In this document: positions 21,932-23,163 of the stretch, piece after piece
Numbering within the stretch: the stretch's first letter is position 1
How the letters are laid out: every line of letters starts with the position of its first letter
IMG/VR virus record: IMGVR_UViG_2667527770_000005
Span: 14,376 to 78,375 of that record
Source: a virus
Taxonomy: Duplodnaviria; Heunggongvirae; Uroviricota; Caudoviricetes
Reading direction: 5' to 3' (one strand)
DNA: 64,000 nucleotides
Notes under the pieces: generated by a model
The model's database searches: none
The model's input: only the letters and a program-made list of their open reading frames with translations
Told to the model about the DNA's origin: nothing
Program-made: the position numbers and the translations under genes

Positions 21932-23163
21932 GCGAGTTGAGTTATCTGGAAAAATTGCTGGATGGGGTTGAAGTTGAGTGGTTGCCATTGGGGGAAATAA
22001 CCAAATATGAACAGCCAACAAAGTATTTGGTAAAAGCAAAAGATTATCACGACACATATACAATACCGGTTCTTACTGCCGGAAAAACATTTATTCTTGG
22101 ATACACAAATGAGACTCATGGTATTTATCAGGCATCAAAGGCACCTGTAATAATTTTTGATGATTTCACCACCGCTAATAAATGGGTGGATTTTGACTTT
22201 AAGGCAAAATCATCGGCCATGAAAATGGTTACATCATGTGATGATAATAAAACCTTACTGAAATATGTTTACTATTGGCTCAATACATTACCAAGTAAAT
22301 TCGCAGAGGGAGACCATAAACGCCAATGGATTAGTAATTATTCTCAAAAAAAAATCCCAATTCCCTGCCCGGATAATCCGGAAAAATCCCTTGCCATCCA
22401 GTCCGAAATTGTTCGGATTCTGGATAAGTTTACTGCACTTACCGCTGAGCTTACCGCTGAGCTTACCGCTGAGCTTAACATGCGTAAAAAACAGTACAAC
22501 TACTATCGCGACCAGTTGTTGAGTTTTGATGAGGAGCAGGAAAAACCTATTTATCTGGAAAAATTGCTGGATGGGGTTGAGGTTGAGTGGTTGCCATTGG
22601 GGGAAGTCTCAGCCTTAAGAAGAGGCAGAGTTATGTCAAAGGGATATTTAACTGAAAATTTTGGCCCATATCCTGTCTATAGCTCTCAAACTGCAAATAA
22701 TGGGAAAATAGGTTCTATCAATACCTTCGATTTTGATGGCGAATATATAAGCTGGACAACAGATGGCGCAAATGCAGGCACTGTGTTCTATCGAACAGGT
22801 AAATTTTCAATAACTAATGTTTGCGGCCTGATTACATTAAAAAATAAATACCCATTAATCTACAAATTTCTGTTTTACTGGCTAACAATAGAAGCCAAAA
22901 AACATGTTTACTCAGGAATGGGAAACCCCAAGTTAATGAGTCATCAGGTTGAAAATATACCTGTACCAGTCCCCTGCCCGGATAATCCGGAAAAATCCCT
23001 TGCCATCCAGTCTGAAATCGTTCGGATTCTGGATAAATTCGACACCCTGACCAACTCCATCACCGAAGGTCTCCCGCGTGAAATCGAGTTGCGCCAGAAA
23101 CAATACGAGTACTACCGTGATTTACTGTTCAGTTTCCCGAAACCTGAAGCTGTCAGTAATTAA
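21928..23163 (+). CDS. hsdS: Type I R-M specificity subunit HsdS (type IC, EcoR124-like), 411 aa
   Basis: Two target-recognition halves with duplicated conserved segments; central TAEL x3 repeat. Confidence 0.9.
22438..22473 (+). repeat. 12-bp tandem repeat CTTACCGCTGAG x3 encoding [12 protein letters not shown] in hsdS central conserved region
   Basis: Read directly from sequence. Confidence 0.95.

What the first reader, a model, noticed from the sequence alone, without database searches (positions are those of the whole stretch)
22438..22473. Three tandem 12-bp repeats (TAEL x3) in hsdS: a spacer-length switch
CTTACCGCTGAG is repeated three times in-frame in the central conserved region of hsdS. 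In EcoR124I versus EcoR124II, two versus three copies of a 12-bp TAEL repeat change the target spacer from N6 to N7 by unequal crossing-over. This allele is in the three-copy state, so the specificity of this system is likely switchable by repeat gain or loss.
Basis: partly seen in the sequence, partly recalled or inferred. Interest (0 to 1): 0.55.

Follow-up and report, generated by a model that had tools for sequence, protein, structure and literature searches.

The report
Spacer-length repeat in type I hsdS
The three 12-base repeats are real and are the textbook EcoR124-type "TAEL" spacer repeat in the specificity gene of a type I restriction system carried by a P1-like plasmid-prophage, and near-identical plasmids that differ only by one repeat unit show it changed recently.

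Summary
CTTACCGCTGAG occurs three times, perfectly and in frame, at 22438-22473, and encodes (L)TAEL x3 in hsdS (21928-23163).

The gene lies in an intact hsdM-hsdS-hsdR operon of the EcoR124 (type IC) family. HsdM and HsdR match the solved EcoR124 proteins over their full lengths. HsdS residues 1-204 match EcoR124I apart from three substitutions and one extra TAEL. The second DNA-recognition domain (TRD-B) is different, and its target is unknown.

- The repeat lies in the first coiled-coil helix, which sets the half-site spacing. Published work gives two copies = N6 and three copies = N7.
- Five independent assemblies of P1-like plasmids carry the same hsdS with two copies. One of them has no substitution over 6.5 kb and differs only by the 12-bp unit.
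- In a systematic sample of 59 E. coli type IC hsdS, 32 had two copies, 22 had three and 5 had four to six. All length differences were multiples of 12.

This is a rare mutational toggle, not shown to be fast phase variation. No methylome or within-culture data exist. It is a known mechanism in a new allele.

Side finding: the two recognition domains are interchangeable cassettes, found in all four arrangements and as a half-size gene.

The parts
20369..21931 (+). hsdM (520 aa), the methyltransferase subunit. Its stop overlaps the hsdS start by 4 nt.
   Evidence: ORF list. Pfam N6_Mtase and HsdM_N. NCBIfam hsdM equivalog, 648 bits. Full-length match 1-520 to the EcoR124II M protein 7bst_D, 1161 bits.
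21928..23163 (+). hsdS (411 aa), the specificity subunit with two recognition domains and two long helices.
   Evidence: Translation. Pfam Methylase_S with two stretches. Residues 1-204 and 357-411 match EcoR124 HsdS 7bst_A. The AlphaFold2 model's best structural match is 7bst_A.
21997..22356 (+). TRD-A, the N-terminal recognition domain. It equals EcoR124 TRD1, which reads GAA. Boundaries are approximate.
   Evidence: Residues 1-204 align to EcoR124I HsdS with only three substitutions (L4M, K124E, D201K) apart from the TAEL insertion. Assignment of GAA to this domain comes from the literature.
22378..22518 (+). First coiled-coil helix (D1, residues 151-197), which contains the repeat.
   Evidence: In the AlphaFold2 model the helix spans 151-197 with block pLDDT 78-87. 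The D1 assignment follows the review.
22438..22473 (+). Three perfect 12-bp units CTTACCGCTGAG encoding LTAE x3 (TAEL at residues 172-183). A partial fourth unit runs to 22477.
   Evidence: In the closest relatives one unit is missing and nothing else differs in hsdS.
21942..21996 (+). 55-nt conserved block in front of TRD-A. It is one copy of a direct repeat whose other copy is at 22551-22605.
   Evidence: the repeat finder family D2, 98% identity, spacing 609 nt.
22551..22605 (+). Second copy of the 55-nt block, in front of TRD-B. It encodes a repeat of the N-terminal [18 protein letters not shown].
22357..22430 (+). 74-nt conserved block after TRD-A ([23 protein letters not shown]). It is one copy of a direct repeat whose other copy is at 22966-23039.
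   Evidence: the repeat finder family D1, 93% identity, spacing 609 nt.
22606..22965 (+). TRD-B, the C-terminal recognition domain. It is unrelated to EcoR124 TRD2 and its target is unknown. Boundaries are approximate.
   Evidence: There is no match to EcoR124 HsdS between residues 205 and 356. A PDB search with this domain matches only its conserved flanks. The same domain occurs in the N position in other alleles.
22966..23039 (+). Second copy of the 74-nt block, after TRD-B.
22987..23127 (+). Second coiled-coil helix (D2, residues 354-400). It has 47 residues, the same length as D1 in the three-copy state.
   Evidence: AlphaFold2 model. There are 17 residues between ILDKF and R(K/Q)KQY in both helices.
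23285..26401 (+). hsdR (1038 aa), the restriction/translocase subunit.
   Evidence: Pfam HSDR_N, SWI2_SNF2, T1R_D3-like and EcoR124_C. Full-length match 1-1038 to EcoR124 HsdR 2w00_A, 2274 bits.

Best explanation
The 36-bp array is the length-determining TAEL repeat of a type IC (EcoR124-family) specificity subunit. The subunit is encoded in an intact hsdM-hsdS-hsdR operon on a P1-like phage-plasmid.

How it works:
- Each 12-bp unit adds four residues, about one helical turn, to the first of the two antiparallel helices that hold the two DNA-recognition domains apart.
- Gain or loss of a unit, by replication slippage or unequal crossing-over between the identical units, shifts the two domains by about one base pair of target DNA. 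The enzyme then methylates and restricts a bipartite site whose spacer is one base longer or shorter.
- This allele is in the three-unit state (the EcoR124II state), in which both helices have the same length.

Predicted targets:
- The N-terminal domain is the GAA-reading domain of EcoR124, so the predicted target is GAA-N(x+1)-[TRD-B half-site].
- The two-unit twin found in sister plasmids is predicted to read GAA-N(x)-[TRD-B half-site], with x = 6 if the EcoR124 count carries over.

Shown here: the repeat, its place in the protein, family membership, the existence of twins that differ only by one unit, and widespread copy-number polymorphism.

Inferred: that specificity differs between the twins, the absolute spacer length, and the molecular mechanism and rate of the change.
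For: Repeat and reading frame.

Family membership:
- HsdR matches EcoR124 HsdR over 1-1038 (2274 bits).
- HsdM matches the EcoR124II M protein over 1-520 (1161 bits).
- HsdS 1-204 matches EcoR124I HsdS apart from three substitutions and a 4-residue TAEL insertion.
- The Pfam EcoR124_C domain is present in HsdR.

Position in the protein:
- The AlphaFold2 model has helices at 151-197 and 354-400, 47 residues each, with TAEL x3 at 172-183 inside the first.
- The best structural match is EcoR124I HsdS 7bst_A.

The rule:
- The review PMC3874165 states that two TAEL give N6 and three give N7, that EcoDXXI and EcoprrI have three, and that EcoR124/EcoDXXI hybrids changed spacer as predicted when the number was changed.
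- PMC10644984 deleted one TAEL from EcoR124II and obtained the EcoR124I defence pattern. Its two primers match the window exactly at 22433-22452 and 22465-22484.

Natural twins:
- P0121/P0006 (407 aa) have the same two domains with two TAEL.
- They lie at the same P1-like locus in six assemblies.
- L004 is identical to the window over the whole operon 20369-26401 except for the 12-bp unit.
- L005 has 0 substitutions over 21928-28401.

Other pairs with the same domains but different copy number: B+A with 2 vs 3 copies, types (3,0) with 1 vs 2, and types (0,6) with 2 vs 3.

Census: 1293 E. coli records match the repeat region. In an even-spread sample of 59, 32 had 2 copies, 22 had 3, 2 had 4, 2 had 5 and 1 had 6. 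Every length difference was a multiple of 12. The 4-, 5- and 6-copy alleles were verified by sequence.
Against: - There is no methylome or restriction data for this allele or its twin, so the change of specificity is inferred from relatives.
- TRD-B sits in a cassette with N-terminal-type flanks. The linker after D1 is 14 residues longer than in EcoR124 (17 vs 3 residues between LLSF and EVEW). The absolute spacer may therefore not be N7.
- The review itself notes that it is unclear how the coiled coil accommodates the register shift.
- The evidence for change is between isolates only. Seven assemblies of the NC101 lineage, including laboratory derivatives, all show the same 5-copy count (rows H122-H128), which argues against a high rate.
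- No 4-copy form of this particular allele was seen among the 120 closest protein clusters.
Confidence: 0.85

Rival explanations
1. The repeat is a fixed structural feature of this allele. The two- and three-copy forms are old, stable alleles, and no ongoing switching takes place in this lineage.
For: Only between-isolate comparisons are available. The copy number is constant (5) across seven assemblies of the NC101 lineage. The three-copy form is shared by two plasmids whose flanks differ.
Against: L005 has no substitution over 6.5 kb, and L004 has none within the 6-kb operon, apart from the 12-bp unit. The change is therefore younger than any point mutation in that stretch. The same kind of difference recurs in at least three other domain combinations. 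All units are identical at the DNA level, as expected for recent duplication.
Confidence: 0.1
2. The repeat is a fast contingency locus (phase variation) that flips specificity at high frequency within a population, like simple-sequence-repeat or invertible hsdS systems.
For: Copy numbers from 1 to 6 occur in E. coli. A survey of phase-variable hsdS genes speculates about effects of repeats next to TAEL.
Against: Three copies of a 12-nt unit form a short tract, and the unit is in frame, so there is no ON/OFF switch. The copy number is stable across seven assemblies of the NC101 lineage. Six assemblies of the twin allele all have exactly two units.
Confidence: 0.05
3. Copy-number change here does not give a clean N to N+1 shift. 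With this unusual second cassette, the three-copy or the two-copy form may be relaxed in specificity or inactive.
For: The linker and flanks of the C-terminal cassette differ from EcoR124. Accommodation of the register shift is not understood. The two alleles verified to carry 5 or 6 copies lie in operons with a broken hsdS or hsdM.
Against: Both states of this allele sit in operons with all three genes intact. Two- and three-copy states are both common in E. coli. In the three-copy state both helices have equal length. Hybrids with other domains obeyed the rule.
Confidence: 0.1
4. The third unit is an assembly or sequencing artefact.
For: None beyond the general difficulty of assembling repeats.
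Against: The array is 36 bp, shorter than any sequencing read. An independent complete assembly has the identical three-unit hsdS. About a third of sampled E. coli alleles have three units.
Confidence: 0.01

Closest known systems
EcoR124II (EcoR124/3) and EcoR124I, type IC, plasmid R124
   Same: Gene order hsdM-hsdS-hsdR. HsdM and HsdR match the solved EcoR124 proteins over their full lengths. The N-terminal (GAA) recognition domain matches apart from three substitutions. The 12-bp unit and its flanks are the same. This allele is in the three-copy state, like EcoR124II, and a natural two-copy partner corresponds to EcoR124I.
   Different: The second recognition domain is unrelated to the RTCG-reading domain. 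It carries N-terminal-type flanks and a 14-residue longer linker, so the target is not GAA N7 RTCG. The operon sits in a P1-like phage-plasmid.
EcoDXXI and EcoprrI (type IC, three TAEL, N7 spacers) and the EcoR124/EcoDXXI hybrids
   Same: They have three repeats in the first helix, and the spacer follows the repeat number whichever recognition domains are present.
   Different: The recognition domains differ.
EcoR124I-NT / HsdS(delta50) and EcoDXXI truncations; NgoAV
   Same: These are half-size or duplicated N-terminal units that act as symmetric specificity subunits (GAA N7 TTC). Natural counterparts occur at this same P1-like locus: A+A fused genes (L014, L016) and a 208-aa half gene (L017).
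   Different: Those are laboratory constructs or a gonococcal frameshift variant. The window's own allele is the asymmetric A+B form.
Domain movement (DoMo) of recognition domains in Helicobacter pylori type I S subunits
   Same: The same recognition domain is found in either position of the gene, flanked by repeated conserved sequence.
   Different: DoMo was described for H. pylori. Here it is seen in E. coli type IC hsdS on P1-like plasmids and on the chromosome. The literature searches run here found no report of it for this family, which is not proof that none exists.

Membership tests
Type IC restriction-modification (EcoR124 family) | Three genes in the order hsdM-hsdS-hsdR on one strand | tested here: met
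   ORFs at 20369-21931, 21928-23163 and 23285-26401, all on the + strand, with matching Pfam domains.
Type IC restriction-modification (EcoR124 family) | HsdR and HsdM closely related to EcoR124 proteins, including the EcoR124-type C-terminal domain of HsdR | tested here: met
   HsdR matches 2w00_A over 1-1038 (2274 bits). PF12008 EcoR124_C has E 1.6e-71. HsdM matches 7bst_D over 1-520 (1161 bits).
Type IC restriction-modification (EcoR124 family) | HsdS with the family's conserved N-terminal, central and C-terminal regions | tested here: met
   Residues 1-204 and 357-411 align to EcoR124 HsdS 7bst_A. The predicted fold is closest to 7bst_A.
Type IC restriction-modification (EcoR124 family) | Subunit complementation or antibody cross-reaction with family members (the classical criterion) | not testable with these tools
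   This needs genetics or biochemistry.
TAEL spacer-length switch (EcoR124I/EcoR124II type) | Perfect tandem 12-bp units encoding TAEL within the first coiled-coil helix of HsdS | tested here: met
   The DNA is identical to the EcoR124II primer sites.
TAEL spacer-length switch (EcoR124I/EcoR124II type) | Partner alleles that differ only in the number of units | tested here: met
   L004 is identical over the operon except for one unit. L005 has 0 substitutions in 6.5 kb. The proteins are P0121 and P0006.
TAEL spacer-length switch (EcoR124I/EcoR124II type) | Target spacer longer by one base pair per added unit | not testable with these tools
   This needs methylome or restriction mapping. It is known for EcoR124I/II and the hybrids from the literature.
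TAEL spacer-length switch (EcoR124I/EcoR124II type) | Interconversion observed within a clonal line | not testable with these tools
   No read-level or culture data are available. Only between-isolate comparison was possible.
Simple-sequence-repeat phase-variable hsdS (contingency locus, e.g. NgoAV) | Long tract of short units whose length change shifts the reading frame or switches expression | tested here: not met
   There are three units of 12 nt, always in frame. All 59 sampled alleles differ in length by multiples of 12.
Invertible or shufflon-type phase-variable hsdS (e.g. SpnD39III) | Silent hsdS copies, inverted repeats and a recombinase next to the expressed gene | tested here: not met
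   Only one hsdS lies in the operon. There are no significant inverted repeats in 21800-23300 (two 12-nt chance-size pairs). No recombinase gene lies between the DNA polymerase III theta gene and the gene after hsdR.

The most novel reading that the evidence does not exclude
The type IC hsdS at the P1-like phage-plasmid locus may be a modular diversification hub. Both recognition domains sit in identical N-terminal-type cassettes (55-nt and 74-nt direct repeats, 609 nt apart), so homologous recombination can place either domain in either position.

With domains A (GAA) and B alone, nature shows:
- A+B, in both two- and three-unit states;
- B+A, in both two- and three-unit states;
- A+A;
- B+B;
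- a half-size A gene.

Combined with 1-6 TAEL units, two domains could give a large set of specificities spread by a temperate phage. The literature searches run here found no description of such domain movement plus spacer variation for E. coli type IC or P1-like elements.
Probability: 0.35. Interest if true: 0.5.

Novelty: new member of a known kind. Interest (0 to 1): 0.3.

Why it matters
The mechanism itself has been textbook knowledge since 1989, so the finding mainly adds a well-documented natural instance. It is a second EcoR124I/II-like pair, caught within plasmids that have not otherwise diverged, and it sits on a transmissible P1-like prophage.

In practice this means two nearly identical phage-plasmids would impose different restriction barriers and different methylation patterns on their hosts. 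That matters for predicting phage and plasmid transfer from sequence.

The natural series of 1 to 6 units, with both helices equal in length at three units, also provides material for an open structural question stated in the review: how the coiled coil accommodates a one-turn mismatch.

Tried and rejected
- **Target of the second recognition domain (TRD-B).** A PDB sequence search with the domain matched only its conserved flanks in EcoR124. NCBIfam has no model hitting HsdS. Literature searches for GAA-N6/N7 motifs gave only EcoR124 work, an engineered symmetric enzyme and a Salmonella Senftenberg motif, GAAN7RTAC, which I could not link to this domain by sequence. The target remains unknown.
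- **Prior description of type IC hsdS variation on P1-like elements.** Two searches returned nothing.
- **First attempt to classify recognition domains.** Position-specific flanks split the same domain into separate clusters, and a faulty regular expression made the next run fail. The classification was redone on core domains.
- **Promoter and terminator scan of the operon.** It gave counts no higher than in shuffled sequence and was not used.
- **Artefact.** Considered and rejected (see rivals).
- **Invertible or shufflon hsdS.** Rejected: no silent copies, no recombinase and no inverted repeats.
- **Four-unit form of this particular allele.** Not found among the 120 closest protein clusters.

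Full report
**1. The observation**

The sequence at 22438-22473 reads CTTACCGCTGAG three times without a mismatch, followed by CTTA. Tandem Repeats Finder reports period 12, 3.3 copies, 100% matches and no indels at 22438-22477. A two-unit pattern with up to two mismatches is found nowhere else in the window, and none is expected by chance.

The array is in frame in a 411-codon ORF, 21928-23163 on the + strand, and encodes ...[18 protein letters not shown]..., that is TAEL at residues 172-183.

**2. The gene and its family**

The ORF is flanked by a 520-codon ORF (20369-21931, overlapping its start by 4 nt) and a 1038-codon ORF (23285-26401).
- Pfam assigns N6_Mtase and HsdM_N to the first ORF, Methylase_S to the second, and HSDR_N, SWI2_SNF2, T1R_D3-like and EcoR124_C to the third. 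NCBIfam agrees for hsdM and hsdR.
- Against solved structures, HsdR matches EcoR124 HsdR over 1-1038 (2274 bits).
- HsdM matches the EcoR124II M protein over 1-520 (1161 bits).
- HsdS residues 1-204 match the 404-residue EcoR124I-form HsdS of entry 7bst. The differences are three substitutions (L4M, K124E, D201K) and a four-residue insertion, which is the extra TAEL. The last 55 residues also match.
- Residues 205-356 do not match. This second recognition domain is called TRD-B here.

The system is therefore an intact type IC operon with the GAA-reading first domain of EcoR124 and a different second domain.

**3. Where the repeat sits**

An AlphaFold2 model built on 53 homologues (mean pLDDT 76) has two long helices, at residues 151-197 and 354-400. 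Each has 47 residues, and the TAEL units lie in the middle of the first. The model's best structural match is EcoR124I HsdS.

Counting directly in the sequence, 17 residues separate the conserved ILDKF from R(K/Q)KQY in both helices. So with three units the two helices are equal in length, and with two units the first is four residues shorter.

**4. The rule from the literature**

The review by Loenen and colleagues (PMC3874165) makes these points:
- EcoR124I has two TAEL and reads GAA N6 RTCG. EcoR124II has three and reads GAA N7 RTCG.
- EcoDXXI and EcoprrI have three.
- EcoR124/EcoDXXI hybrids changed spacer exactly as predicted when the repeat number was changed.

A 2023 study (PMC10644984) deleted one TAEL from plasmid-borne EcoR124II and obtained the phage-defence pattern expected of EcoR124I. 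Its two mutagenic primers match the window exactly at 22433-22452 and 22465-22484.

**5. Comparative test of 'switchable'**

A search of 5.8 billion proteins found a cluster (P0006, P0121; 407 aa) with the same two domains and only two TAEL. These proteins are encoded in six different E. coli or Escherichia assemblies. The locus is the same as in the window wherever upstream sequence is present: phd/doc, with humD and the DNA polymerase III theta gene in most assemblies, then hsdM, hsdS, hsdR and a 168-aa phosphatase-kinase gene.

At the DNA level:
- L004 (GCA_054678945.1) differs from the window over 18369-28401 by the 12-bp unit, one single-base indel and two substitutions. None of these other than the unit lies inside the operon.
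- L005 (GCA_012200505.1) has no substitution at all over 21928-28401.
- L006 and L007 have 4 and 5 substitutions over that stretch.

The three-unit form is also present in an independent complete plasmid, pPSS-10_1. It is identical to the window from hsdS to position 25986 and then carries 31 clustered substitutions, a sign of recombination in the 3' part of hsdR.

The two-unit form also occurs with two more divergent hsdR backgrounds (L003 and L008, 136 and 158 substitutions over 21928-28401). The simplest history is therefore a two-unit ancestor of this allele and a recent gain of one unit. That direction is an inference.

**6. How general it is**

A 156-nt probe (60-nt flanks plus three units) hits 1293 records in 1205 of 5426 complete E. 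coli genomes. In a systematic sample of 60 rows spread over the whole ranking, the record span minus the query span was always a multiple of 12. The counts were as follows:

| Units | Alleles in sample |
|---|---|
| 2 | 32 |
| 3 | 22 |
| 4 | 2 |
| 5 | 2 |
| 6 | 1 |
| Partial match | 1 |

That puts three units at 37% of the sample (95% interval 26-50%).

I verified four of the long alleles by sequence:
- Six units: an intact 436-aa hsdS next to a truncated hsdM (L009).
- Five units: the NC101 lineage, where hsdS is cut by ISEc45 (L010).
- Four units: one fully intact operon (L012) and one hsdS cut by IS3 (L011).

One-unit forms exist among the proteins (P0077, P0079). Among the 120 closest protein clusters, three further domain combinations occur with different unit numbers. 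The units are identical at the DNA level in nearly all these alleles, as expected if they are continually duplicated and lost.

**7. Rate**

Nothing here measures a rate. Seven assemblies of the NC101 lineage, several of them laboratory derivatives, all carry five units. All six assemblies of the twin allele carry two. The tract is short and always in frame. I therefore read this as an occasional mutational toggle with large phenotypic effect, not as a fast contingency locus.

**8. What is not known**

The half-site read by TRD-B could not be found. TRD-B lies in a cassette whose flanks copy those of the first domain, and its linker after the first helix is 14 residues longer than in EcoR124. 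The absolute spacer, N7 by analogy, is therefore a prediction. The firmer prediction is that the window allele and its twin differ by one spacer base.

**9. Side findings**

The two domains carry the same flanks: 55-nt and 74-nt direct repeats, each pair 609 nt apart.

A chromosomal hsdS in E. coli LR-25 has the same two domains in the opposite order, also with three units. At the P1-like locus I also found:
- B+A with two units (L013);
- A+A (L014, L015, L016);
- B+B (P0002, P0007, P0008);
- a 208-aa half gene with domain A only and no TAEL region (L017). It is 627 bp, that is 1236 minus 609, as expected from recombination between the direct repeats.

In the 120 clusters, domain A is in the first position 18 times and the second 16 times. 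Domain B is in the first position 44 times and the second 40 times.

This resembles the domain movement described in Helicobacter pylori (PMC3077401). The A+A and half-gene forms resemble the engineered EcoR124I-NT enzyme, which reads GAA N7 TTC. A circularly permuted EcoAI kept its specificity, so A+B and B+A are expected to read the same duplex site.

**10. Context**

The window is a P1-like phage-plasmid. Region 26500-34000 is 98-99% identical to phage P1. The operon sits between the DNA polymerase III theta (hot) gene and the P1 pap/pmgS region, and two sequenced P1-like phages carry the same operon. In total 111 complete E. coli genomes have a plasmid covering at least 80% of 10000-34000.

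**11. Verdict**

The finding is correct and its interpretation is supported, but the mechanism is long known. The new elements are this uncharacterised allele, the near-isogenic natural twin on a phage-plasmid, and the copy-number census. Interest is modest.

Noticed in passing
window 21942-21996 / 22551-22605 and 22357-22430 / 22966-23039: Both recognition domains of hsdS have the same flanks: a 55-nt (98% identical) and a 74-nt (93% identical) direct repeat, each pair 609 nt apart. The gene therefore looks like two tandem copies of an N-terminal-type half gene.
   Followed up: partly
L002:6001-7236 (E. coli LR-25 chromosome); L013:6001-7224; L014:6001-7224; L016:4863-6086; proteins P0002, P0007, P0008: The same two recognition domains occur in all four arrangements: A+B, B+A, A+A and B+B. 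B+A occurs with both two and three TAEL units. Except for the chromosomal LR-25 gene (L002), every arrangement whose locus was looked up lies at the same P1-like plasmid locus; the B+B proteins were not looked up. Across the 120 closest clusters, many domain types occur in both positions.
   Followed up: partly
L017:2501-3127 (plasmid p321-pO111, NZ_CP076303.1): A natural half-size hsdS (208 aa) with domain A only and no TAEL region lies between intact hsdM and hsdR on a P1-like plasmid. At 627 bp it is the size expected from deletion between the 609-nt-spaced direct repeats. Several other plasmids gave matches of the same size.
   Followed up: partly
L009:1003-2313, L010:1006-1764, L011:1336-2220, L012:1063-2229: Natural alleles exist with 6, 5, 4 and 4 TAEL units. 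The two alleles verified to have 5 or 6 units sit in operons with a broken hsdS or hsdM, which may reflect drift after inactivation. One 4-unit allele is in a fully intact operon.
   Followed up: partly
window 25987-28401 compared with L001 (pPSS-10_1): pPSS-10_1 is identical to the window from hsdS to 25986. It then carries 31 clustered substitutions and a 20-bp deletion (27630-27649) that frameshifts the 420-aa ORF. This is a mosaic pattern suggesting a recombination breakpoint inside hsdR.
   Followed up: partly
window 1-64000: The window is a P1-like (Punavirus) phage-plasmid, with C1 repressor, terminase, late promoter activator, phd/doc, an S24 peptidase gene and a DNA polymerase III theta gene next to the operon. 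ORF 92-6859 (2255 aa) was not analysed; from memory it has the size of P1 DarB, a protein said to protect phage DNA from type I restriction. If so, that would be a notable companion for a type I system.
   Followed up: no
window 39947-42073: There are four tRNA genes on the minus strand: Met at 39947-40022, and a tight Thr-Tyr-Asn cluster at 41827-42073.
   Followed up: no
window 49646-49749: A 21-bp unit is repeated 4.9 times (73% matches) upstream of a 398-aa ORF at 51981-53177. This may be the plasmid replication iterons next to a partition gene, but that reading comes from memory of P1 and was not tested.
   Followed up: no
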